Virus genome (UHGV): UHGV-0234484
Reading direction: 5' to 3' (one strand)
Source: a virus
DNA: 13,965 nt
Shown here: positions 1 through 13,965 of the stretch, piece by piece
Position numbering within the stretch: the stretch's first letter is position 1
Layout of the letters: every line of letters starts with the position of its first letter
Notes under the pieces: model-generated
The model's database searches: none
Seen by the model: only the letters and a program-made list of their open reading frames with translations
What the model was told of the DNA's origin: nothing
Made by a program: the position numbers and the translations under genes

Positions 1-2
1 CC

Positions 3-362
3 AGCATCATCCAGGATAAGGCGAAAAAGGTGTTGGCGCTGAAAGTGGATCCGGAGTCGCCGGAGTCTTTTATGTTACGCCCAAAACGTCACCGCTGGGT
101 TAATGAAAAGTACACGCGCTGGGTTAAGACGCAGCCGTGCGCATGTTGTGGAAAACCTGCTGATGATCCCCACCACCTGATAGGCCACGGTCAGGGGGGA
201 ATGGGTACAAAAGCGCATGACCTTTTTGTGTTGCCTTTGTGCAGAAAGCATCACGACGAGCTGCATGCGGATACCGTGGCATTTGAAGAGAAGTATGGCT
301 CCCAGCTGGAGCTGATATTTCGTTTTATCGATCGCGCACTGGCGATTGGTGTGCTGGCCTGA
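3..362 (+). CDS. nin-region phage protein, DUF968/HNH-like C-terminal domain; 5' end lies outside the window
   Basis: Reading frame is open from the window edge (codons from position 3) to the stop at 360-362; the listed start at 30 is a GTG inside an open frame. The translation carries a Cys/His cluster (CACCGKP...DPHHL...[12 protein letters not shown]) typical of His-Me/HNH-like zinc-binding motifs found in DUF968 proteins, which sit just upstream of Q in lambdoid prophages. Family assignment is from memory. Confidence 0.6.
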
Positions 363-379
363 TTTTGTGGAGAAAGTTA

Positions 380-763
380 ATGCGTGATATTCAGATGGTT
401 CTTGAACGTTGGGGAGCGTGGGCGGCTAATAATCATGAAGATGTGACCTGGTCGTCCATTGCCGCCGGTTTTAAGGGATTAATTCCTTCAAAAGTAAAAT
501 CTCGCCCGCAATGTTGTGACGATGACGCGATGATCATTTGCGGGTGCATGGCCCGTCTGAAAAAGAACAACAGCGATTTACACGATTTATTAGTAGATTA
601 TTATGTATGTGGTATGACATTCATGTCACTGTCAAGTAAGCATTGCTGCTCGGATGGTTATATCGGGAAAAGGTTACAGAAGGCTGAGGGCATAATTGAA
701 GGGATGTTAATGGCATTAGATATCCGGTTAGATATGGATATCGTTGCTAATAATTCTAATTGA
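380..763 (+). CDS. quuD: late-gene antiterminator Q, small Q family (phage 82 / DLP12 QuuD-like), 127 aa
   Basis: ATG at 380 is preceded by a GGAGA Shine-Dalgarno at 369-373; the six-frame ORF begins at an upstream TTG at 365. The product has Cys-rich zinc-binding patches (CCDDD...CGC, KHCC) and sits between the nin region and the lysis cassette. Recognised from memory as the DLP12-type small Q; not confirmed by search. Confidence 0.75.
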
Positions 764-900
764 TATGCAATTGTTTACTAAAAGTTATTAAAAATGGGGC
801 GTGGAAACGCCCCCAAAATAAAGGGTAATATATAACAGAAGGTTTATATAGTAAGAAGCAAGGTAGTGCTTCTAAATGAAGTGGCTTGAGGGCTCCACTT
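764..900 (+). promoter_or_regulatory. candidate late promoter (pR') and Q-utilisation region downstream of Q
   Basis: AT-rich non-coding stretch immediately after Q and before a + strand hairpin/U-tract at 901-941. In lambdoid phages pR' and qut lie directly downstream of Q. I could not pin down exact -35/-10 hexamers by eye. Confidence 0.3.
787..814 (-). terminator. rho-independent terminator on the minus strand; likely 3' end of the nmpC / IpeX-like transcript
   Basis: Inverted repeat GGGGCG-TGGAAA-CGCCCC at 796-813. On the minus strand the hairpin is followed by AUUUUUAAUAA (complement of 787-795); on the + strand no U-tract follows it. Confidence 0.5.
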
Positions 901-951
901 ATATGTTGCGGAGGCAAAGCCTCCCGCAACATATCTTTTTCGTAAGTCAGA
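789..951 (-). ncRNA. ipeX: IpeX-like regulatory 3' UTR of the porin gene (inhibitor of porin expression)
   Basis: About 160 nt untranslated stretch between the nmpC stop (952) and the minus-strand terminator at 787-814, containing a long near-perfect inverted repeat at 901-934. Published work on DLP12 nmpC and PA-2 lc places ipeX in the UTR between the porin stop codon and its terminator. Positional and structural inference only. Confidence 0.4.
901..941 (+). terminator. hairpin plus U-tract on the + strand downstream of Q (tR'-like candidate)
   Basis: Inverted repeat ATATGTTGCGGAGGC / GCCTCCCGCAACATAT at 901-934 with one bulge, followed by CTTTTT at 935-940. The U-tract is on the + strand only. 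Confidence 0.4.
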
Positions 952-2034
952 TTAGAACTGATAAACCAGACCTACAGCGACGATGTCGTCGGTATCAATA
1001 CCAGCTGTTTTGGTAAACTTACTATCGTCAATTAAGTTGATTTTGTAATCAACAAAAGTGGACATGTTTTTATTAAAGTAGTAAGTAGCACCGACATCGA
1101 CATACTTGACTAAGTCTCGGTCACCATGAACACCAAGGTCTTTACCTTTTGACTGAAGGTAAGCAACAGATGGACGCAGACCGAAGTCAAACTGATATTG
1201 TGCTACTGCTTCAAAGTTTTGTGCTTTGTTTGCAATATGGTTATTACCAAAAACGGTCATATTCTGAGTTTCAGAATATGTGGTAGCCAGATAGATATTG
1301 TTCGCATCATATTTCAGGCCTGCAGCCCATACTTCCGCATTTTTGCCGGAGGCATTGAATTTGCTCTTACCATAGGCGACCTGACCGTCAGTGCGATCTG
1401 ATTTAGCATAGGTTGCACCCACGCCGAATCCTTCATACTCATAAGTAGTGGAGAAACCGAAACCATCACCATTGGCTTCAGTTACGTCAGTGCGGTCATT
1501 TTTACCCTGATACTGAGCAGCAAAGTTCAGGCCATCGACCAGACCAAAGAAGTCGTTGTTACGATAAGTTGCAACACCAGTAGTGCGACCAGTCATGAAC
1601 ACATCTGTTTGGGTCCAGGTATCACCACCGAATTCTGGCAGGACGTCAGTCCACGCACCGATGTCGTATGCTACACCGTAGTTACGGCCGTAATCGATTG
1701 AGCCGTAATCACCAAATTTCAGGCCTGCAAATGCAAGACGGGTTTTGTCTTTGGAAGAACCTTGAGATTCAGCACGGTTGCCTTTGAATTCATATTCCCA
1801 CTGACCGAAACCAGTCAGTTGATCGTTGATTTGGGTTTCACCTTTGAAGCCAAGACGGGCATAAGTAGTATCACCATCATCTGCATCATTAGAGGAGAAG
1901 TAGTGCTTGGCATTAACTTTCCCGTATAGATCCAGCTTGTTACTGTCTTTATTATAAATTTCAGCTGCCTGAGCAGACATCGCCATCAGTACTGATGCAG
2001 CTACAGCAGAAATTGCCACTGTTAATTTTTTCAT
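952..2034 (-). CDS. nmpC: outer-membrane general porin, OmpC/PhoE family (NmpC / Lc / OmpD-like), intact, 360 aa
   Basis: N-terminal signal peptide [23 protein letters not shown] then AEIYNKD; porin-like composition rich in G, Y, D, N; C-terminal ...VGLVYQF ending in Phe, as in beta-barrel OMPs. Sits between Q and the lysis genes, as nmpC does in DLP12. No IS interruption is visible. Confidence 0.85.
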
Positions 2035-2460
2035 TGTACGCCCTTTTTTTTGAACTATTATTAAAAAATGATGTCACTGCGCGATAAATATTCATCTAAT
2101 CAATGCGATTATTTCAAGATGTAAGTTTTAGTTTCTCATTTAATTTGTGAAGTAGATCTCTATTTTTATCTAAACCTTTTCTATCTAATCCTATTCATGG
2201 CTCTTGTTTGAACGAAAATAAATCTATTAGCTAATTTATATTAATGGCACTTATTTATAAGAGATCTATAATTCTTTAGCTTAATTTAAACAAACTAAAA
2301 ATAACATCGGAAATTATTCATTGGTTATTTGTTGAAGTTTTCTTATGTATTTGTGGTGGTGTTTTGAACACTCGGTGGCATTCTCACAAATATCATTTAG
2401 TAGTTTACGTACGTAAAAAATTGGTTATGCTGTTAAGAGTGGTTACTTCGTCACACAGCT
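2035..2460 (-). promoter_or_regulatory. AT-rich upstream regulatory region and promoter of the porin gene
   Basis: About 420 bp of very AT-rich non-coding DNA directly upstream of the nmpC start at 2034, with AAGGG about 6 nt before the ATG as an RBS. No ORF of 60 aa or more in any frame. Exact promoter elements not resolved. Confidence 0.4.
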
Positions 2461-2461
2461 T

Positions 2462-2494
2462 AAACCCGCCGTCGAGCGGGTTTTTCCATTTTTT
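2462..2494 (+). terminator. rho-independent terminator on the + strand, about 130 bp upstream of the holin
   Basis: AAACCCGC-CGTCGA-GCGGGTTT stem-loop at 2462-2484 followed by TTCCATTTTTT. No U-tract on the opposite strand. Confidence 0.55.
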
Positions 2495-2623
2495 GAGTCT
2501 CGATATTAGCTGATAACCCAATACCTGAGTTATTCACTGACTCCGAATCTGTTACGTTTCTGCCTTTATTGCGATACGTAGTATCCCCTTAATTTACACC
2601 CGCTTTGTCTGCGAGGTGGGGTT

Positions 2624-2839
2624 ATGAAATCCATGGATAAGTTAACAACGGGTGTCGCCTATGGCACCTCAGCAGGTAGTGCCGGATACTGGTTTTTACA
2701 GCTGCTAGATAAAGTCACGCCCTCACAGTGGGCGGCAATTGGAGTGCTGGGTAGCCTGGTATTTGGCCTGCTGACGTACCTGACAAACCTTTATTTCAAG
2801 ATTAAAGAAGATAAGCGCAAGGCTGCGAGAGGTGGATAA
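2624..2839 (+). CDS. essD: pinholin, phage 21 S21 class, with dual-start motif (Met1 antiholin / Met4 holin), 71 aa
   Basis: Begins MKSMDK (two Met codons three codons apart), then a Gly/Ala-rich TM1 ([15 protein letters not shown]), a second TM ([18 protein letters not shown]) and a charged C-terminus [22 protein letters not shown] Shine-Dalgarno at 2612-2620. Closely matches my memory of S21/EssD. Confidence 0.9.
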
Positions 2840-3336
2840 TGCCTCCATCATTACGAAAAGCTGTTGCTGCTGCTATTGGTGGCGGGGCTATTGCTATAGC
2901 ATCTGTGTTAATCACTGGCCCAAGTGGTAACGATGGTCTGGAAGGTGTGAGACATAATCCTTACAAAGACATAGTTGGTGTATGGACTGTATGTTACGGG
3001 CATACAGGAAAAGACATCATTCCCGGTAAAACGTATACCGAAGCAGAGTGCAAAGCCCTCCTGAATAAAGACCTTGCCACTGTCGCCAGACAAATTAACC
3101 CGTACATCAAAGTCGATATACCGGAAACAACGCGCGGCGCTCTTTACTCGTTCGTCTACAACGTGGGTGCTGGCAATTTCAGAACATCGACGCTTCTTCG
3201 CAAAATCAACCAGGGCGATATCAAAGGCGCATGTGACCAGCTACGTCGCTGGACATACGCTGGCGGTAAGCAATGGAAAGGGCTGATGACTCGCCGTGAG
3301 ATTGAGCGTGAAGTCTGTTTGTGGGGGCAGCAATGA
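2839..3336 (+). CDS. rrrD: SAR endolysin (signal-anchor-release lysozyme, R21 / RrrD-like), 165 aa
   Basis: N-terminal weakly hydrophobic Gly/Ala-rich SAR segment ([20 protein letters not shown]) then a T4-lysozyme-like catalytic region with E-8aa-D-5aa-T spacing ([17 protein letters not shown]). Start ATG overlaps the holin stop (TAATG at 2837-2841). Confidence 0.9.
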
Positions 3337-3797
3337 GCAGGTTAACCGCGATTATCTCCGCTCTGGTTATCTGCATCATCGTCTGTCTGTCATGGGCTGT
3401 TAATCATTACCGTGATAACGCCATTACCTATAAAGAACAGCGCGACAAAAATACCAGAGAACTGAAGCTGGCGAACGCGGCAATTACTGACATGCAGATG
3501 CGTCAGCGTGATGTTGCTGCGCTCGATGCAAAATACACGAAGGAGTTAGCTGATGCGAAAGCTGAAAATGATGCTCTGCGTAATGATGTTGCCGTTGGTC
3601 GTCGTCGGTTGCACATCAAAGCAGTCTGTCAGCCAGTGCGTGAAGCCACCACCGCCTCCGGCGTGGGTAATGCAGCCTCCCCCCGACTTACTGACTCCGC
3701 TGAACGGGATTATTTCACCCTCAGAGAACGAATCGACACAGTGACGAAGCAGGTTGGTTATCTGCAGGAATATGTGAAAAGACAATGCGTTCAGTGA
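3333..3797 (+). CDS. rzpD: i-spanin Rz (inner-membrane spanin subunit)
   Basis: ATG at 3333 overlaps the endolysin TGA (ATGA). N-terminal TM helix ([20 protein letters not shown]) followed by a coiled-coil-like periplasmic domain. The listed ORF start at 3321 is an upstream GTG. Confidence 0.85.
3553..3744 (+). CDS. rzoD: o-spanin Rz1 (outer-membrane lipoprotein), embedded in the +1 frame of Rz
   Basis: Entirely inside Rz in another frame. Lipoprotein signal with lipobox ([14 protein letters not shown]) followed by a proline-rich mature region ([14 protein letters not shown]), the Rz1 hallmark. Confidence 0.85.
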
Positions 3798-3867
3798 CAA
3801 AAAAATCACAATCCGTATCAAAGATGAGTAAAATCTGAACTCATAAACAAATGTTGGATACATATCA

Positions 3868-4425
3868 ATGATACAGGATTGGTTAGATTACCAAAATCTC
3901 GAGACTGCTAAGTCAGCAGCGAGGGCCGCGTGGGAGTCTTTAGAATGGACGAAAATTTCAGCGATTGCCTCTTGGGTTTCTGTAGTGCTCTCTGCAATAA
4001 CCTCAGGCGTAGCTATCTACGCAATGGGTACTTGGAAATCACAAGAGAAAGTAAAAGCTAAACGTGAGATCAAAAAAGCAGCAGGTAAGCTGTATGTAGA
4101 AGTAGGGCTAATGCCACAAATATTCACAAGCAAGAATGTTACTAACGGTCAGGTTGTTTCCAAGTCACCTAATTTTGAAGTGTTGGCTAGCCAAAAAAAT
4201 CAAGGCTATATTGATGAATGGTTAATGCACGAAAAGTTATCGGAACTGTATTTACAGCTCAAATACTTGGGGTATGCCGTAGTTGATGATCTGACTAGCG
4301 CCCAAAAAGATGCGCTAAACGGTTTGGATACACATTTTCAAAATTATTATTCTTACACCGAAAGTAAGGTGAATTTTGAAAAATCTTTAAAGGATTTTTT
4401 GGATAAGATGGACATCTATAAATAG
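3868..4425 (+). CDS. hypothetical membrane-anchored protein, 185 aa, low-GC accessory (moron) gene
   Basis: Clean ORF in lower-GC, AT-rich sequence between the spanins and cos. Predicted single TM segment around residues 29-53 (ISAIASWVSVVLSAITSGVAIYAMG) followed by a Lys-rich stretch and a roughly 130-aa soluble domain. Followed by a terminator. I do not recognise the family. Confidence 0.6.
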   Translation: MIQDWLDYQNLETAKSAARAAWESLEWTKISAIASWVSVVLSAITSGVAIYAMGTWKSQEKVKAKREIKKAAGKLYVEVGLMPQIFTSKNVTNGQVVSKSPNFEVLASQKNQGYIDEWLMHEKLSELYLQLKYLGYAVVDDLTSAQKDALNGLDTHFQNYYSYTESKVNFEKSLKDFLDKMDIYK

Positions 4426-4442
4426 TCAAATCCTATCGGTAA

Positions 4443-4466
4443 GCCGCCTCCGGGCGGTTTTTTATT
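4443..4466 (+). terminator. rho-independent terminator after the 185-aa ORF
   Basis: CCGCC-TCCG-GGCGG stem-loop at 4444-4457 followed by TTTTTTATT, 18 nt after the stop at 4425. Confidence 0.5.
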
Positions 4467-4504
4467 GCCATCACAATGGGCAGGCCCATCGTAACGGCAG
4501 TATC

Positions 4505-4831
4505 TTATATACACCAATGACATCTCTGGATGGTTGGCAGTCCTGTTAGTTGGCCTGCGGTGGACTCGGCCTCGTCAAGCGTAAGAACACATACTTTTTG
4601 GTATCGGCCAGTAGTAAAGCTGGCGTGATTTTTAGGACTGATTAATGGGTTGATTGATTTGCATGAGGCTCGATGAATCCGCGTAAATCTGGCATCACTT
4701 TTTCTGCCTTTCCCGCTGGCCGACTTAAGCAGATTAATAACGAATCCATCGGAATGGGTCGCTAGCCAACTCTTGTACATCGCTTCGCTATCAACATCCT
4801 GTATTTCACTGCTGAAAATAGTAATGCCCAT
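4505..4831 (-). CDS. hypothetical protein, 108 aa, convergent with the 185-aa ORF
   Basis: Minus-strand ORF with ATG at 4829-4831 and TAA at 4505-4507, preceded on its own strand by an AT-rich stretch and GGAAAAAAT before the ATG. Product ends ...QRCHWCI and contains HRASCKS. No recognisable family. It occupies the position where lambda carries bor, but the sequence is unrelated to Bor as I remember it. Confidence 0.45.
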   Translation of the reverse strand: MGITIFSSEIQDVDSEAMYKSWLATHSDGFVINLLKSASGKGRKSDARFTRIHRASCKSINPLISPKNHASFTTGRYQKVCVLTLDEAESTAGQLTGLPTIQRCHWCI

Positions 4832-4989
4832 ATTTTTTCCGTATATGACTAACTGATATGAATATGTATCAGGACTATTTTATGGCAAAACCAGAGTAGA
4901 AGGCCATTGGGTCCGGAGTGTTGATGTGAACAAATTACCCCCCCCTCTAAGTGTAATTGATATGTATTATCATTTTCGGGTCCTTTCCG

Positions 4990-5190
4990 GCGATCCGGAG
5001 CGTTACGGGGCGGAAGGCGCGCGGGTTTTCGCTATTTATGAAAATTTTCCGGTTTAAGGCGTTTCCGTTCTTCTTCGCCGTAACTTAATGTTTTTATTTA
5101 AAACACCCTCTGAAAAGAAAGGAAACGACAGGTGCTGAAAACGAGCTTTTTGGCCTCTGTCGTTTCCTTTCTCTGTTTTTGTCCGTGGAA
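4990..5190 (+). other. cos: cos site (cosQ / cosN / cosB) for terminase-mediated packaging; cosN at about 5008-5019
   Basis: From 5020 onward the sequence (CGCGGGTTTTCGCTATTTATGAAAATTTTCCGGTTTAAGGCGTTTCCGTTCTTCTTCG...) matches my memory of the lambda left end (cosB with R3/I1/R2/R1) almost base for base, up to the nu1 ATG at 5197. The 12 nt just before it read GGGCGGAAGGCG, against lambda cosN GGGCGGCGACCT. Confidence 0.8.
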
Positions 5191-5196
5191 TGAACA

Positions 5197-5716
5197 ATGG
5201 AAGTCAACAAAAAGCAGCTGGCTGACATTTTCGGCGCGAGTATCCGTACCATTCAGAACTGGCAGGAGCAGGGAATGCCCGTTCTGCGGGGTGGTGGCAA
5301 GGGTAATGAAGTGCTTTATGACTCTGCCGCCGCCATAAAATGGTATGCCGAAAGGGATGCTGAAATTGAGAACGAAAAGCTGCGCCGGGAAGTTGAAGAA
5401 CTGCGGCAGGCCAGCGAGACAGATCTCCAGCCAGGGACTATTGAGTACGAACGCCATCGACTTACGCGTGCGCAGGCCGACGCACAGGAGCTGAAAAATG
5501 CCAGAGACTCCGCTGAAGTGGTGGAAACCGCATTCTGTACTTTCGTGCTGTCGCGGATCGCAGGTGAAATTGCCAGTATTCTCGACGGGATCCCCCTGTC
5601 GGTGCAGCGGCGTTTTCCGGAACTGGAAAACCGACATGTTGATTTCCTGAAACGGGATATCATCAAAGCCATGAACAAAGCAGCCGCGCTGGATGAACTG
5701 ATACCGGGGTTGCTGA

Positions 5717-5742
<26 letters not shown>
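5197..5742 (+). CDS. nu1: terminase small subunit Nu1, 181 aa
   Basis: MEVNKKQLADIFGASIRTIQNWQEQGMPVLRGGGKGNEV... corresponds to lambda gpNu1 (winged helix-turn-helix N-terminus) at the same length and the same distance from cos. Confidence 0.95.
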
Positions 5743-9423
<3,681 letters not shown>

Positions 9424-9443
<20 letters not shown>

Positions 9444-10743
9444 TCTCCCGCATATTGCCAGCATGGCCTTTAATGAGCCGCTGATGCTTGAACCCGCCTA
9501 TGCGCGGGTTTTCTTTTGTGCGCTTGCAGGCCAGCTTGGGATCAGCCGCCTGACGGATGCGGTGTCCGGCGACAGCCTGACTGCCCAGGAGGCACTCGCG
9601 ACGCTGGCATTATCCGGTGATGATGACGGACCACGACAGGCCCGCAGTTATCAGGTCATGAACGGCATCGCCGTGCTGCCGGTGTCCGGCACGCTGGTCA
9701 GCCGGACGCGGGCGCTGCAGCCGTACTCGGGGATGACCGGTTACAACGGCATTATCGCCCGTCTGCAACAGGCTGCCAGCGATCCGATGGTGGACGGCAT
9801 TCTGCTGGATATGGACACACCGGGCGGGATGGTGGCGGGAGCATTTGACTGTGCTGACATCATCGCCCGTGTGCGAGACATAAAACCGGTATGGGCGCTG
9901 GCCAACGACATGAACTGCAGTGCAGGTCAGCTGCTTGCCAGTGCCGCCTCCCGGCGTCTGGTCACGCAGACCGCCCGGACAGGCTCCATCGGCGTCATGA
10001 TGGCTCACAGCAATTACGGTGCTGCGCTGGAGAAACAGGGCGTGGAAATCACGCTGATTTACAGCGGCAGCCATAAGGTGGATGGCAATCCCTACAGCCA
10101 TCTTCCGGATGACGTCCGGGAGACACTGCAGTCCCGGATGGACGCAACCCGCCAGATGTTTGCGCAGAAGGTGTCGGCATATACCGGCCTGTCTGTGCAG
10201 GCTGTGCTGGATACCGAGGCTGCAGTGTACAGCGGTCAGGAGGCCATTGATGCCGGACTGGCTGATGAACTTGTTAACAGCACCGATGCGATCACCGTCA
10301 TGCGTGATGCACTGGATGCACGTAAATCCCGTCTCTCAGGAGGGCGAATGACCAAAGAGACTCAATCAACAACTGTTTCAGCCACTGCTTCGCAGGCTGA
10401 CGTTACTGACGTGGTGCCAGCGACGGAGGGCGAAAACGCCAGCGCGGCGCAGCCGGACGTGAACGCGCAGATCACCGCTGCGGTTGCGGCAGAAAACAGC
10501 CGCATTATGGGGATCCTCAACTGTGAGGAGGCTCACGGACGCGAAGAACAGGCGCGCGTTCTGGCAGAAACCCCCGGTATGACCGTGGAAACGGCCCGCC
10601 GCATTCTGGCCGCAGCACCACAGAGTGCACAGGCGCGCAGTGACACTGCGCTGGATCGTCTGATGCAGGGGGCACCGGCACCGCTGGCTGCAGGTAACCC
10701 GGCATCTGATGCCGTTAACGATTTGCTGAACACACCAGTGTAA
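9424..10743 (+). CDS. C: head maturation protease / minor capsid protein C (S49/ClpP-like), 439 aa
   Basis: GTG at 9424 preceded by GAGGAGGAGGAG (9409-9420), overlapping the end of B. Product VTAELRNLPHIASMAFNEPLMLEP... matches lambda gpC. The 477-aa ORF listed from 9310 is an artefactual upstream extension. Confidence 0.9.
10138..10743 (+). CDS. nu3: scaffolding protein Nu3, in-frame internal start within C sharing its C-terminus, 201 aa
   Basis: ATG at 10138 is in the C frame (MDATRQMFAQKVSAYTG...). Lambda expresses Nu3 from exactly this nested arrangement. Expression is inferred from lambda, not visible here. Confidence 0.7.
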   Translation: MDATRQMFAQKVSAYTGLSVQAVLDTEAAVYSGQEAIDAGLADELVNSTDAITVMRDALDARKSRLSGGRMTKETQSTTVSATASQADVTDVVPATEGENASAAQPDVNAQITAAVAAENSRIMGILNCEEAHGREEQARVLAETPGMTVETARRILAAAPQSAQARSDTALDRLMQGAPAPLAAGNPASDAVNDLLNTPV

Positions 10744-10752
10744 GGGATGTTT

Positions 10753-11085
10753 ATGACGAGCAAAGAAACCTTTACCCATTACCAGCCGCTGGGCAACAGT
10801 GACCCGGCTCATACCGCAACCGCGCCAGGCGGATTGAGTGCGAAAGCGCCTGCAATGACCCCGCTGATGCTGGACACCTCCACCCGTAAGCTGGTTGCGT
10901 GGGATGGCACCACCGACGGTGCTGCCGTTGGCATTCTTGCGGTTGCTGCTGACCAGACCAGCACCACGCTGACGTTCTACAAGTCCGGCACGTTCCGTTA
11001 TGAGGATGTGCTCTGGCCGGAGGCTGCCAGCGACGAGACGAAAAAACGGACCGCGTTTGCCGGAACGGCAATCAGCATCGTTTAA
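10753..11085 (+). CDS. D: head decoration protein D, 110 aa
   Basis: [33 protein letters not shown]... matches lambda gpD. Start taken at the ATG at 10753 (third codon of the listed ORF) to give the lambda length. Confidence 0.9.
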
Positions 11086-11104
11086 CCTTACCCTTCATCA
11101 CTAA

Positions 11105-11140
11105 AGGCCGCCTGTGCGGCTTTTTTTACGGGATTTTTTT
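11105..11140 (+). terminator. terminator-like hairpin with U-runs in the D-E intergenic region
   Basis: GGCCGCC-TGT-GCGGC stem-loop at 11106-11120 followed by TTTTTTT, then ACGGGATTTTTTT immediately before the E start codon. Confidence 0.45.
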
Positions 11141-12166
11141 ATGTCGATGTACACAACCGCCCAGCTGCTGGCGGCAAATGAGCAGAAATTTAAGTTTGAT
11201 CCGCTGTTTCTGCGTCTCTTTTTCCGTGAGAGCTATCCCTTCACCACGGAGAAAGTCTATCTCTCACAAATTCCGGGGCTGGTAAACATGGCGCTGTACG
11301 TTTCGCCGATTGTTTCCGGTGAGGTTATCCGCTCCCGTGGCGGCTCCACCTCTGAATTTACGCCGGGATATGTCAAGCCGAAGCATGAGGTGAATCCGCA
11401 GATGACCCTGCGTCGCCTGCCGGATGAAGATCCGCAGAATCTGGCGGACCCGGCTTACCGCCGCCGTCGCATCATTATGCAGAACATGCGTGACGAAGAG
11501 CTGGCCATTGCCCAGGTCGAAGAGATGCAGGCAGTTTCTGCCGTGCTTAAGGGCAAATACACCATGACCGGTGAAGCTTTCGATCCGGTTGAGGTGGATA
11601 TGGGCCGCAGTGCGGCCAACAACATCACGCAGTCCGGCGGCACGGAGTGGAGCAAGCGTGACAAGTCCACGTATGACCCGACCGACGATATCGAAGCCTA
11701 CGCGCTGAACGCCAGCGGAGTGGTGAATATCATCGTGTTTGATCCGAAAGGCTGGGCGCTGTTCCGTTCCTTCAAAGCCGTCAAGGAGAAGCTGGATACC
11801 CGTCGTGGCTCTCATTCCGAGCTGGAGACAGCGGTGAAAGACCTAGGCAAAGCGGTGTCCTACAAGGGGATGTATGGCGATGTGGCCATCGTCGTGTATT
11901 CCGGACAGTACGTGGAAAACGGCGTCAAAAAGAACTTCCTGCCGGACAACACGATGGTGCTGGGGAACACTCAGGCACGCGGTCTGCGCACCTATGGCTG
12001 CATTCAGGATGCGGACGCACAGCGCGAAGGCATTAACGCCTCTGCCCGTTACCCGAAAAACTGGGTGACCACCGGCGATCCGGCGCGTGAGTTCACCATG
12101 ATTCAGTCAGCACCGCTGATGCTGCTGGCTGATCCTGATGAGTTCGTGTCTGTACAACTGGCGTAA
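11141..12166 (+). CDS. E: major capsid protein E (HK97 fold), 341 aa
   Basis: ATG at 11141; MSMYTTAQLLAANEQKFKFDPLFLRLFFRESYPFTTEKVYL... matches lambda gpE. The ORF listed from 11114 carries a 9-codon upstream extension. Confidence 0.95.
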   Translation: MSMYTTAQLLAANEQKFKFDPLFLRLFFRESYPFTTEKVYLSQIPGLVNMALYVSPIVSGEVIRSRGGSTSEFTPGYVKPKHEVNPQMTLRRLPDEDPQNLADPAYRRRRIIMQNMRDEELAIAQVEEMQAVSAVLKGKYTMTGEAFDPVEVDMGRSAANNITQSGGTEWSKRDKSTYDPTDDIEAYALNASGVVNIIVFDPKGWALFRSFKAVKEKLDTRRGSHSELETAVKDLGKAVSYKGMYGDVAIVVYSGQYVENGVKKNFLPDNTMVLGNTQARGLRTYGCIQDADAQREGINASARYPKNWVTTGDPAREFTMIQSAPLMLLADPDEFVSVQLA

Positions 12167-12207
12167 TCATGGCCCTTCGGGGCCATTTTCTCTCTGTGGA
12201 GGAGTTC

Positions 12208-12606
12208 ATGACGAAAGATGAACTGATTGCCCGTCTTCAGGAGCTGGGTGAGCAACTGAACCGCGATGTCAGTTTGACGGGAACGAAAGAAGAACTGGCG
12301 CTTCGTGTGGCAGAGCTGGAAGAAGAGCTTGATGACACGGATGAAACTGCCGGTCAGGACACCCCTCTCAGCCGGGAAAATGTGCTGACCGGGCATGAAA
12401 ATGAGGTGGTATCAGCGCAGCCGGATACCGTGATTCAGGATACGGCTGAACTGGTCACGGTCGTGGCACTGGTGACGCTGCATACTGATGCACTTCACGC
12501 CACGCGGGATAAACCTGTGGCATTTGTGCTGCCGGGAACGGCGTTTCGTGTCTCTGCCGGTGTGGCAGCCGAAATGACAGAACGTGGCCTGGCCAGAATG
12601 CAATAA
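12208..12606 (+). CDS. FI: DNA packaging / head completion protein FI, 132 aa
   Basis: ATG at 12208 preceded by GGAGGAG at 12190-12196; MTKDELIARLQELGEQLNRDVSLTGTKEELALRVAELEEELDD... matches lambda gpFI. Confidence 0.9.
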   Translation: MTKDELIARLQELGEQLNRDVSLTGTKEELALRVAELEEELDDTDETAGQDTPLSRENVLTGHENEVVSAQPDTVIQDTAELVTVVALVTLHTDALHATRDKPVAFVLPGTAFRVSAGVAAEMTERGLARMQ

Positions 12607-12617
12607 CGGGAGGCGCT

Positions 12618-12971
12618 GTGGCTGATTTCGATAACCTGTTCGATGCTGCCATTGCCCGCGCTGATGAAACGATACGCGGGTACATGGGAACGTCAGCCAC
12701 CATGACATCCGGTGAGCAGTCCGGTGCGGTGATACGTGGTGTTTTTGATGACCCTGAAAATATCAGCTATGCCGGACAGGGCGTGCGCGTTGAAGGCTCC
12801 AGCCCGTCCCTGTTTGTCCGGACTGATGAGGTGCGGCAGCTGCGGCGTGGAGACACGCTGACCATCGGTGAGGAAAATTTCTGGGTAGATCGGGTTTCGC
12901 CGGATGATGGCGGAAGCTGTCATCTCTGGCTTGGACGGGGCGTGCCGCCTGCCGTTAACCGTCGCCGCTGA
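12618..12971 (+). CDS. FII: head-tail connector protein FII, 117 aa
   Basis: GTG start at 12618 preceded by GGGAGG; ADFDNLFDAAIARADETIRGYMGTSATMTSGEQSG... matches lambda gpFII. Confidence 0.9.
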   Translation: MADFDNLFDAAIARADETIRGYMGTSATMTSGEQSGAVIRGVFDDPENISYAGQGVRVEGSSPSLFVRTDEVRQLRRGDTLTIGEENFWVDRVSPDDGGSCHLWLGRGVPPAVNRRR

Positions 12972-12982
12972 AAGGGGGATGT

Positions 12983-13561
12983 ATGGCCATAAAAGGTCTT
13001 GAGCAGGCCGTTGAAAACCTCAGCCGTATCAGCAAAACGGCGGTGCCCGGTGCCGCCGCAATGGCCATTAACCGCGTTGCTTCATCCGCGATATCGCAGT
13101 CGGCGTCACAGGTTGCCCGTGAGACAAAGGTACGCCGGAAACTGGTAAAGGAAAGGGCCAGGCTGAAAAGGGCCACGGTCAAAAATCCGCAGGCCAGAAT
13201 CAGGGTTAACCGGGGGGATTTGCCCGTAATCAGGCTGGGTAATGCGCGGGTTGTCCTGTCCCGCCGCAGGCGTCGTAAAAAGGGGCAGCGTTCATCCCTG
13301 AAAGGTGGCGGCAGCGTGCTTGTGGTGGGAAACCGTCGTATTCCCGGCGCGTTTATTCAGCAACTGAAAAATGGCCGGTGGCATGTCATGCAGCGTGTGG
13401 CCGGGAAAAACCGTTACCCCATTGATGTGGTGAAAATCCCGATGGCGGTGCCGCTGACCACGGCGTTTAAACAGAATATTGAGCGGATACGGCGTGAGCG
13501 TCTTCCGAAAGAGCTGGGCTATGCGCTGCAGCATCAACTGAGAATGGTAATAAAGCGATGA
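12983..13561 (+). CDS. Z: tail assembly / tail completion protein Z, 192 aa
   Basis: MAIKGLEQAVENLSRISKTAVPGAAAMAINRVASSAISQ... matches lambda gpZ; very basic mid-region (RRRRRKKGQR). Confidence 0.9.
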   Translation: MAIKGLEQAVENLSRISKTAVPGAAAMAINRVASSAISQSASQVARETKVRRKLVKERARLKRATVKNPQARIRVNRGDLPVIRLGNARVVLSRRRRRKKGQRSSLKGGGSVLVVGNRRIPGAFIQQLKNGRWHVMQRVAGKNRYPIDVVKIPMAVPLTTAFKQNIERIRRERLPKELGYALQHQLRMVIKR

Positions 13562-13953
13562 AACATACTGAACTCCGTGCAGCCGTACTGGATGCACTGG
13601 AGAAGCATGACACCGGGGCGACGCTTTTTGATGGTCGCCCCGCTGTTTTTGATGAGGCGGATTTTCCGGCAATTGCCGTTTATCTCACCGGCGCTGAATA
13701 CACGGGCGAAGAGCTGGACAGCGATACCTGGCAGGCGGAGCTGCATATTGAAGTTTTCCTGCCTGCTCAGGTGCCGGATTCAGAGCTGGATTCGTGGATG
13801 GAGTCCCGGATTTATCCGGTGATGAGCGATATCCCGGCACTGTCAGATTTGATCACCAGTATGGTGGCCAGTGGCTATGACTACCGGCGCGACGATGATG
13901 CGGGCCTGTGGAGTTCAGCCGATCTGACTTATGTCATTACCTATGAAATGTGA
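13558..13953 (+). CDS. U: tail terminator protein U, 131 aa
   Basis: ATG overlaps the Z stop (ATGA at 13558-13561). MKHTELRAAVLDALEKHDTGATLFDGRPAVFDEADFPAIAVYLTGAEY... matches lambda gpU. Confidence 0.9.
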   Translation: MKHTELRAAVLDALEKHDTGATLFDGRPAVFDEADFPAIAVYLTGAEYTGEELDSDTWQAELHIEVFLPAQVPDSELDSWMESRIYPVMSDIPALSDLITSMVASGYDYRRDDDAGLWSSADLTYVITYEM

Positions 13954-13960
13954 GGACGAT

Positions 13961-13965
13961 ATGCC
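13961..13965 (+). CDS. V: start of major tail protein V, truncated by the window end
   Basis: ATGCC (Met-Pro) 8 nt after the U stop, preceded by GAGGA at 13952-13956. Lambda gpV begins MP. Only 5 nt are present, so this is positional inference. Confidence 0.4.

What the first reader, a model, noticed from the sequence alone, without database searches (positions are those of the whole stretch)
380..5196. Mosaic join: DLP12/21-type Q-porin-lysis module fused to an essentially lambda-identical packaging and head module
Q, the pinholin, the SAR endolysin and the porin moron are of the DLP12/phage 21/PA-2 type, not lambda Q, S or R. From cos onward the proteins are near-identical to lambda through to V. 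The switch falls in the 3.8-5.0 kb accessory island, consistent with module exchange at the lysis-cos boundary, and the near-identity of the right-hand block to lambda suggests a recent exchange.
Basis: partly seen in the sequence, partly recalled or inferred. Interest (0 to 1): 0.4.

Follow-up and report, generated by a model that had tools for sequence, protein, structure and literature searches.

The report
Common lambdoid prophage late region
This is the late-gene region of an ordinary E. coli lambda-like prophage whose DLP12-type lysis genes and lambda-type head genes are a long-established, very common combination, not a recent fusion; only a rare 1.2-kb two-gene insert next to the packaging site is unusual.

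Summary
The window really is a mosaic relative to lambda, but an ordinary one. Q is 95% identical to QuuD of DLP12. The pinholin and SAR endolysin are 100% and 96% identical to EssD and RrrD. From cos to U the DNA is 98.2% identical to lambda.

Four details need correcting:
- Q is not Q21-type (33% identity).
- Rz/Rz1 (3333-3727) is already 95.7% identical to lambda, so lambda-likeness first appears at the R|Rz junction, not in the island.
- The island replaces lambda's bor region between two lambda-like flanks.
- The window ends in U, not V.

"Recent exchange" is not supported. DLP12 carries the same join (nohD and the aaaD remnant, 96.8%). Phage PhiR49_1 matches both flanks at about 98%. At least 80% of the window is contiguous in 14 phage records and in 981 of 5,426 complete E. 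coli genomes. About 98% identity is the usual level for this head module, and lambda has the same GC step.

The rare part is 3798-4951, complete in 2 of 5,426 genomes. It encodes a membrane-anchored helical protein of 185 aa and a Cys/His-rich protein of 108 aa, both of unknown function. The cohesive end is a right-half variant (GGGCGGAAGGCG), a kind of variation already described.

The parts
30..362 (+). 3' end of a DUF968 gene. It belongs to the upstream nin-region module. Many relatives, DLP12 included, start matching only at about 345.
   Evidence: Pfam PF06147, E 9e-61. Homology with DLP12 and many phages begins at 345.
380..763 (+). Late antiterminator Q, QuuD (DLP12) type.
   Evidence: PF06530, E 2e-53. 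95% identical to QuuD, 33% to Q21, no detectable similarity to lambda Q.
952..2034 (-). OmpC/NmpC-like porin moron, placed between Q and the late promoter.
   Evidence: PF00267, E 2e-151. NCBIfam OmpC subfamily, 521 bits against a cut-off of 484. DNA identity to DLP12 nmpC is 78-98%, varying along the gene.
2244..2483 (+). Candidate late promoter pR' (2244-2272, ATGGCA-17-TATAAT) and terminator tR' (2462-2483), upstream of the lysis genes.
   Evidence: Consensus scan only. Assignment is by position. The region is 90-92% identical to DLP12.
2624..2839 (+). Class II (phage 21-type) pinholin with dual start (MKSM...).
   Evidence: PF04971, E 2e-35. 100% identical to EssD, 86% to S21.
2839..3336 (+). 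SAR endolysin (RrrD/R21 type).
   Evidence: PF00959. 96% identical to RrrD, 94.5% to R21. N-terminal [20 protein letters not shown] segment and E35/D44/T50 present.
3333..3797 (+). i-spanin Rz, a chimera. Bases 3333-3727 are the lambda/21/DLP12 type (95.7% DNA identity to lambda). Bases 3728-3797 are the C-terminal tail of another allele (C4/PhiR49-like).
   Evidence: PF03245.
3553..3744 (+). o-spanin Rz1, embedded in Rz. Its C-terminal residues change together with the Rz tail.
   Evidence: phrog_3198, E 3e-30. Comparison of Rz1 sequences.
3868..4425 (+). ORF185, a rare moron. The model is a long N-terminal helix containing one hydrophobic, probably membrane-spanning stretch, followed by a helical bundle. 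Function unknown.
   Evidence: 12 homologues among 5.8 billion proteins. 47 representatives in a profile search. phrog_6169, E 1e-13. AlphaFold2 pLDDT 84. No fold match. Homologues sit in the same lysis-to-terminase slot of unrelated prophages.
4441..4460 (+). Intrinsic terminator-like hairpin after ORF185. It also marks the junction between the ORF185 and ORF108 cassettes.
   Evidence: Genomes C4 and FHI_NMBU_03 begin to match at 4441 and 4453.
4505..4831 (-). ORF108, a conserved small protein with invariant His52 and Cys56/80/103/106. It is oriented against late transcription, like bor in lambda. Function unknown.
   Evidence: 10 homologues in Yersinia, Citrobacter, Leclercia and Enterobacter. 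Alignment. Not annotated in strain E28.
4978..5190 (+). cos. cosQ is GGGTCCT at 4978-4984. The cosN cohesive end is 5008-5019, GGGCGGAAGGCG, a right-half variant. Lambda-type cosB follows, up to Nu1.
   Evidence: Alignment with lambda, 21, DLP12 and PhiR49. Positions. The variant recurs in 29 IMG/VR contigs and in phage PhiR46_1.
5197..7642 (+). Terminase small subunit Nu1 (5197-5742) and large subunit A (5717-7642), lambda type.
   Evidence: 98.3% and 99.8% protein identity to lambda. PF07471.
7639..12971 (+). Lambda-type head genes: W, B (portal), C/Nu3, D, E, FI, FII.
   Evidence: 94-100% protein identity to lambda and 38-67% to phage 21. Annotation of the 99.7%-identical E28 locus.
12983..13953 (+). 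Tail genes Z and U. Phage 21 becomes 96-100% identical from 12843 onward.

Best explanation
The window is the late operon of a typical E. coli lambda-like (Lambdavirus-type) prophage.

Inferred by homology, it works as follows:
- A QuuD-type Q protein lets RNA polymerase that starts at the late promoter upstream of the lysis genes read through terminators.
- That polymerase transcribes the pinholin, the SAR endolysin and the Rz/Rz1 spanins, then continues across cos into the lambda-type terminase, head and tail genes.
- The porin lies on the opposite strand between Q and the late promoter. ORF108, also on the opposite strand, lies next to cos. Both are morons, probably expressed from the prophage.

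The pairing of a DLP12-type Q-porin-lysis block with lambda-type cos and head genes is an old and widespread module combination, not a recent event. What is individual to this prophage:
1. A rare two-cassette insert (ORF185 and ORF108) occupies the hypervariable slot between Rz and cosQ, where lambda has bor.
2. An intragenic recombination joint lies in the 3' end of Rz.
3. [quoted passage not shown]
For: Gene content and identities.

The combination is common:
- It occurs in 981 of 5,426 complete E. coli genomes and in 14 phage records, including mEp332, PhiR11_1 and PhiR49_1.
- The left block is present in 2,323 genomes and the right block in 2,967.
- DLP12 has the same order, with nohD/aaaD 96.8% identical to the window.

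Lambda is not unusually close. Relatives sampled across the ranking of the head block lie at 97-98.2% identity.

The slot is combinatorial:
- E300082 carries the same island behind a different Q region that has no porin.
- C4 and FHI_NMBU_03 carry the ORF108 cassette, cos and lambda-type terminase behind a different holin, lysozyme and Q.
- At least five unrelated sequence classes upstream of cos all converge within a few bases of cosQ.

Lambda has the same GC asymmetry: 0.40-0.46 against 0.57.

The window is contiguous in an independent complete genome at 99.7%.
Against: - No expression or induction data exist. The promoter and terminator assignments are consensus matches, and their number does not exceed that in shuffled sequence.
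- Whether this prophage is inducible, and whether the variant cos is cut, was not shown for this sequence. It is inferred from phage PhiR46_1, which carries the same cohesive-end sequence, and from the published tolerance of bp 7-12 (PMC4669245).
- The functions of ORF185 and ORF108 are unknown.
Confidence: 0.9

Rival explanations
1. One reading: a recent recombination at the lysis-cos boundary fused a DLP12/21/PA-2-type Q-porin-lysis module onto a lambda packaging and head module.
For: The left block has no lambda homology up to 3332, and the right block is 98.2% identical to lambda. Identity to DLP12 is lower in the left block (about 90-94%) than identity to lambda in the right block.
Against: - The same join is in DLP12, in 14 phage genomes and in 981 E. 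coli genomes.
- PhiR49_1 matches the left block at 99.8% and the right block at 97.6%.
- About 98% is the background identity for the head module.
- Rz upstream of the island is already lambda-like.
Confidence: 0.05
2. The island (3798-4951) is a prophage-encoded anti-phage or superinfection-exclusion module. ORF185 would act at the inner membrane, and ORF108 would be a zinc-binding partner or an independent moron.
For: - The position is that of lysogenic-conversion genes such as bor.
- It has a moron-like layout: low GC (0.39-0.45), its own terminator, and ORF108 antisense to late transcription.
- ORF185 homologues occupy the same slot in unrelated prophages.
- There is a weak PADLOC hit to PD-Lambda-6 (E 0.0036).
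Against: - The PADLOC hit covers residues 33-105, which include the hydrophobic helix, and it is not reproduced in ten family members.
- There are no Pfam or NCBIfam hits and no fold match.
- The two genes are not always linked. The ORF108 cassette occurs without ORF185, and ORF185 homologues occur without it.
Confidence: 0.15
3. The join is an assembly chimera of two resident prophages.
For: E. coli genomes carry a median of 4 places matching parts of the window, which can confuse assemblers.
Against: An independent complete chromosome (E28) is collinear over all 13,965 bases at 99.7%. E300082 is collinear across 2608-9960, spanning the island and cos.
Confidence: 0.01

Closest known systems
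Cryptic prophage DLP12 of E. coli K-12 (quuD-nmpC-essD-rrrD-rzpD/rzoD-borD-ybcV-ybcW-ylcI-nohD-aaaD)
   Same: The gene order from Q to the terminase genes is the same. Q is 95%, S 100%, R 96% and Nu1 98.9% identical in protein. DNA identity is 94.5% (345-993), 90% (1027-3727) and 96.8% (4952-6024).
   Different: DLP12 is truncated after the aaaD remnant, and its nmpC is interrupted by IS5. It carries borD-ybcV-ybcW-ylcI in the Rz-cos slot instead of ORF185 and ORF108. Its cohesive end is the canonical GGGCGGCGACCT.
Escherichia phage PhiR49_1 (PV340568/PV340569) and similar sequenced phages (PhiR11_1, mEp332, Kati, Turner)
   Same: They have the whole arrangement. PhiR49_1 matches 1-3340 at 99.8% and 4952-13965 at 97.6%.
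   Different: The 3' part of Rz differs, and so does the slot content (a KilA-N protein, YbcV and hypothetical proteins). The cohesive end is canonical.
Bacteriophage lambda (NC_001416)
   Same: The cos-Nu1-A-W-B-C-D-E-FI-FII-Z-U block is 98.2% identical in DNA. The Rz/Rz1 core is 95.7% identical. The GC asymmetry is the same.
   Different: Lambda has its own Q, S and R and no porin. It has bor, lambdap78 and lambdap79 in the Rz-cos slot. Its cohesive end differs at bp 7, 8, 9, 10 and 12.
Bacteriophage 21 (OL657228)
   Same: The pinholin S21 (86%), SAR endolysin R21 (94.5%) and Rz/Rz1 are shared. Z and U are about 99% identical.
   Different: Q21 is only 33% identical. Phage 21 has two tRNA genes instead of a porin. 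Its cosB and head genes are a different allele set, 38-67% identical in protein.

Membership tests
Lambda-type (Lambdavirus) packaging and head module | cosQ, cosN and cosB followed by Nu1, A, W, B, C/Nu3, D, E, FI and FII in lambda order, with high identity to lambda | tested here: met
   98.18% DNA identity over 8,947 bases. All eleven proteins have lambda's length and are 94-100% identical. cosQ GGGTCCT is present.
Lambda-type (Lambdavirus) packaging and head module | 12-base 5' cohesive end with a conserved left half and conserved CG dinucleotides flanking the nick sites | tested here: met
   TTACG|GGGCGGAAGGCG|CGCGGG. The left half and flanks are intact, and bp 7-10 and 12 differ. Variation in bp 7-12 is described as common and tolerated (PMC4669245). 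Cutting was not tested.
Phage 21/DLP12-type pinholin-SAR endolysin lysis cassette | Class II holin of the S21 family with dual start, followed by a lysozyme with an N-terminal signal-anchor-release segment and the E/D/T catalytic triad | tested here: met
   PF04971, E 2e-35, with the MKSM start. R is 94.5% identical to R21, with the Gly/Ala-rich segment at residues 8-27 and E35/D44/T50. Membrane release itself is not testable here.
Q21-type antiterminator | Close sequence relationship to Q of phage 21 | tested here: not met
   33% identity over 88 residues to Q21, against 95% over the full length to QuuD. It is a QuuD-type Q within Pfam PF06530.
PA-2 Lc / DLP12 NmpC prophage porin moron | OmpC-family porin gene on the opposite strand between Q and the late promoter of a lambdoid prophage | tested here: met
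   PF00267, with NCBIfam OmpC subfamily above its cut-off. Position and strand are as for DLP12 nmpC. Direct comparison with PA-2 Lc was not possible because no sequence was at hand.
PD-Lambda-6 anti-phage defence protein (PADLOC) | Significant match to the PD-Lambda-6 profile | tested here: not met
   ORF185 scores only 15.5 bits (E 0.0036) over residues 33-105, which include its hydrophobic helix. Ten family representatives give no such hit.

The most novel reading that the evidence does not exclude
The rare 1.2-kb insert between Rz and cosQ encodes two conserved but uncharacterised small proteins. One is a membrane-anchored helical protein whose homologues keep the same lysis-to-terminase position in unrelated prophages of Citrobacter and other enterobacteria. 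The other is a Cys/His-rich protein. One or both could be a new lysogenic-conversion or superinfection-exclusion function.
Probability: 0.15. Interest if true: 0.4.

Novelty: already known. Interest (0 to 1): 0.1.

Why it matters
It matters little. The arrangement illustrates the textbook modular mosaicism of lambdoid phages, and the result shows that the flagged join is a common, long-standing combination.

Three modest points are useful:
- A base-level map of the module boundaries: about 345, 3333, 3728, about 4441-4453, about 4952-4977 (just upstream of cosQ), and 12843.
- Two rare, unannotated or hypothetical moron genes in the bor slot that could be screened for phenotypes.

Tried and rejected
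- Rfam (E up to 0.1) and tRNA scans of the whole window found nothing.
- Pfam, NCBIfam and PADLOC gave no credible assignment for ORF185 or ORF108. PHROGs placed ORF185 only in an unknown-function family.
- The AlphaFold2 model of ORF185 (pLDDT 84) matched only generic helical bundles in the PDB and BFVD, with no E-value at or below 0.001.
- The PD-Lambda-6 lead was rejected as a probable hydrophobic-helix artefact.
- A literature search for the variant cohesive-end sequence found no phage paper.
- The Casjens and Hendrix lambda review could not be retrieved.
- A paper describing the PhiR phages was not found, so their origin is cited only from the GenBank records.
- GC content was considered as evidence for exchange and rejected, because lambda shows the same step.
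- An assembly chimera was considered and rejected.
Full report
**What is in the window**

The ORF map, the family scans and the annotation of a 99.7%-identical stretch of the E. coli E28 chromosome give the following layout:

| Coordinates | Strand | Feature |
|---|---|---|
| 30-362 | + | 3' end of a DUF968 gene |
| 380-763 | + | Q antiterminator |
| 952-2034 | − | OmpC-family porin |
| 2244-2272 | + | Promoter-like site |
| 2462-2483 | + | Terminator-like hairpin |
| 2624-2839 | + | S21-family holin |
| 2839-3336 | + | Lysozyme |
| 3333-3797 | + | Rz, with Rz1 embedded at 3553-3744 |
| 3798-4951 | both | Accessory island |
| about 4978-5190 | + | cos |
| 5197-13953 | + | Nu1, A, W, B, C/Nu3, D, E, FI, FII, Z, U |

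Only the first five bases of V fall inside the window.

**Checking the observation**

Protein comparisons were made with lambda, phage 21 and DLP12.

- Q is 95% identical to QuuD, only 33% to Q21, and shows no detectable similarity to lambda Q.
- S is 100% identical to EssD and 86% to S21.
- R is 96% identical to RrrD and 94.5% to R21. It keeps the Gly/Ala-rich N-terminal segment and E35/D44/T50.
- Nu1 to U are 94-100% identical to lambda and 38-67% to phage 21, except Z and U, which are about 99% identical to both.

At DNA level, window 5020-13965 matches lambda 13-8959 at 98.18%. The core observation therefore holds.

Four details do not hold:
1. Q is DLP12/QuuD-type, not 21-type.
2. The Rz/Rz1 core (3333-3727) is 95.7% identical to lambda. 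The first switch to lambda-like DNA is at the R|Rz junction. The island is a replacement between two lambda-like flanks, not the place where the switch occurs.
3. The non-lambda gap begins inside Rz. The last 23 or so residues of Rz, and the end of Rz1, come from another allele also seen in strain C4 and PhiR49_1.
4. The block ends in U, not V.

**Is it a special or recent join?**

No, for five reasons.

- The whole-window search finds 14 phage records and 981 of 5,426 complete E. coli genomes with at least 80% of the window in one place.
- PhiR49_1 matches 1-3340 at 99.8% and 4952-13965 at 97.6%. It differs only in the Rz tail and the island.
- DLP12 itself has quuD-nmpC-essD-rrrD-rzpD followed by nohD and an aaaD remnant. 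These match window 4952-6024 at 96.8%. The combination therefore predates the decay of that cryptic prophage.
- The head block alone is present in 2,967 genomes and the left block in 2,323. Head-block relatives sampled across the ranking lie at 97-98.2% identity. Lambda's 98.2% is thus the ordinary level for this conserved module, not a sign of recent transfer.
- GC is 0.39-0.51 across segments from Q to cos, against 0.57 in Nu1-U. Lambda shows the same values: 0.455 from Q to the right end, 0.398 from the Rz end to cosQ, and 0.567 in Nu1-U.

**Fine structure of the mosaic**

Comparison with nine references places boundaries at these positions:

- **About 345:** start of the Q module, where DLP12 and many phages begin to match.
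- **3333:** the R|Rz junction, where lambda joins in.
- **3727/3728:** inside Rz, at the conserved [10 protein letters not shown] stretch.
- **4441-4453:** the terminator after ORF185, where genomes that carry only the ORF108 cassette begin to match.
- **4952-4977:** just upstream of cosQ.
- **12843:** inside FII, where phage 21 becomes 96-100% identical.

Sequences upstream of cos in 29 IMG/VR contigs and several phages fall into at least five unrelated classes. All of them converge within a few bases of cosQ.

The lambda-type cos and head block also occurs behind other Q and lysis modules. E300082 has a different Q and a methyltransferase and lacks the porin. C4 and FHI_NMBU_03 have a different holin, a GH24 lysozyme and a different Q.

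The 45 differences between the window and E28 all lie in four clusters inside the head block, which is typical of conversion patches.

**The island**

The complete island is found in only 2 of 5,426 complete genomes, E28 and E300082.

*ORF185 (3868-4425, + strand)*
- It has 12 homologues among 5.8 billion proteins, named sources being Citrobacter, Klebsiella and Rahnella.
- A full profile search finds 47 representatives.
- It belongs to phrog_6169, a family of unknown function.
- The AlphaFold2 model (pLDDT 84) shows a long N-terminal helix containing a hydrophobic stretch, followed by a helical bundle.
- No structural neighbour is significant.
- A weak PD-Lambda-6 hit covers residues 33-105, which include the hydrophobic helix, and is not reproduced in ten relatives.
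- Homologues sit between the lysis genes and the terminase genes of unrelated prophages.
- It is followed by a terminator-like hairpin at 4441-4460.

*ORF108 (4505-4831, − strand)*
- It is not annotated in E28.
- It has 10 homologues in Yersinia, Citrobacter, Leclercia and Enterobacter, with invariant His52 and Cys56/80/103/106.

The two cassettes occur independently of each other. They occupy the slot where lambda has bor and DLP12 has borD-ybcV-ybcW-ylcI. Their functions remain unknown. A lysogenic-conversion or exclusion role is an inference from position only.

**cos**

[quoted passage not shown] The 12-base end is GGGCGGAAGGCG (5008-5019), against lambda's GGGCGGCGACCT.

The variant is exact in 29 IMG/VR contigs and occurs in phage PhiR46_1. 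It is linked to lambda-type, 21-type and another type of cosB.

Feiss and colleagues report three relevant points (PMC4669245):
- bp 7-12 vary naturally. N15 differs at bp 9 and 12, and Gifsy-1 at bp 8, 9 and 11.
- These positions do not measurably affect cleavage.
- cosQ, the left half and the flanking CG dinucleotides are conserved.

The window fits that rule, with five of the six right-half positions changed.

**How it works (inferred from homology, not shown here)**

QuuD-type Q modifies RNA polymerase at the late promoter upstream of S. Transcription then runs through the terminators into S-R-Rz/Rz1, the ORF185 cassette, cos and the structural genes. The pinholin depolarises the membrane and releases the SAR endolysin. 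The spanins disrupt the outer membrane. Terminase binds cosB, nicks cosN and packages DNA until the next cosQ/cosN. The porin and ORF108 lie antisense to late transcription and are probably expressed from the prophage.

**Verdict**

This is a correct but unremarkable description of lambdoid modularity. The join is already known and very common, and the "recent exchange" inference is not supported. The rare two-gene island and the cohesive-end variant are minor side observations.

Noticed in passing
window 5008-5019 (cosN), with cosQ at 4978-4984: The 12-base cohesive end is GGGCGGAAGGCG, not lambda's GGGCGGCGACCT. It differs at bp 7, 8, 9, 10 and 12. The left half, the flanking CG dinucleotides and cosQ are intact. 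The same allele occurs in 29 IMG/VR contigs and in phage PhiR46_1, next to three different cosB types. This fits the published rule that bp 7-12 are free to vary (PMC4669245).
   Followed up: partly
window 3728-3797 (3' end of Rz) and 3553-3744 (Rz1): Rz is an intragenic chimera. Residues 1 to about 131 are lambda/21/DLP12-type, and the last 23 or so residues are of the allele seen in strain C4 and PhiR49_1. The C-terminus of the embedded Rz1 changes with it (…PSENESTQ instead of …PSERG).
   Followed up: partly
window 4505-4831, minus strand: A 108-aa ORF that is not annotated in the near-identical E28 genome is conserved in Yersinia, Citrobacter, Leclercia and Enterobacter. It has invariant His52 and Cys56/80/103/106, so it may bind a metal. 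It matches no known family.
   Followed up: partly
window 3868-4425: The 185-aa ORF belongs to a very small family (12 close homologues, 47 representatives). Its members keep the same position, between the lysis genes and the terminase genes, in otherwise unrelated prophages. One example is a Citrobacter prophage with an HK97-like terminase.
   Followed up: partly
window 5995-6115, 7084-7180, 9774-10479, 13186-13498: Apart from one difference at base 33, all 45 differences from the E28 prophage lie in the head block, almost all in these four clusters. None lies between 34 and 5994. The pattern suggests short recombination (conversion) patches with other resident lambdoid prophages.
   Followed up: no
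window 12843 (inside FII) to 13965: Phage 21 is 60-74% identical to the window through the head genes and jumps to 96-100% from 12843 onward. This is a sharp head/tail module boundary shared by lambda, phage 21 and this prophage.
   Followed up: no
window about 1000-1500 (porin gene): Identity to DLP12 nmpC drops to 78-80% in 1001-1500, while it is 90-98% elsewhere in the gene. This fits diversification of part of the porin. It was not mapped to loops.
   Followed up: no
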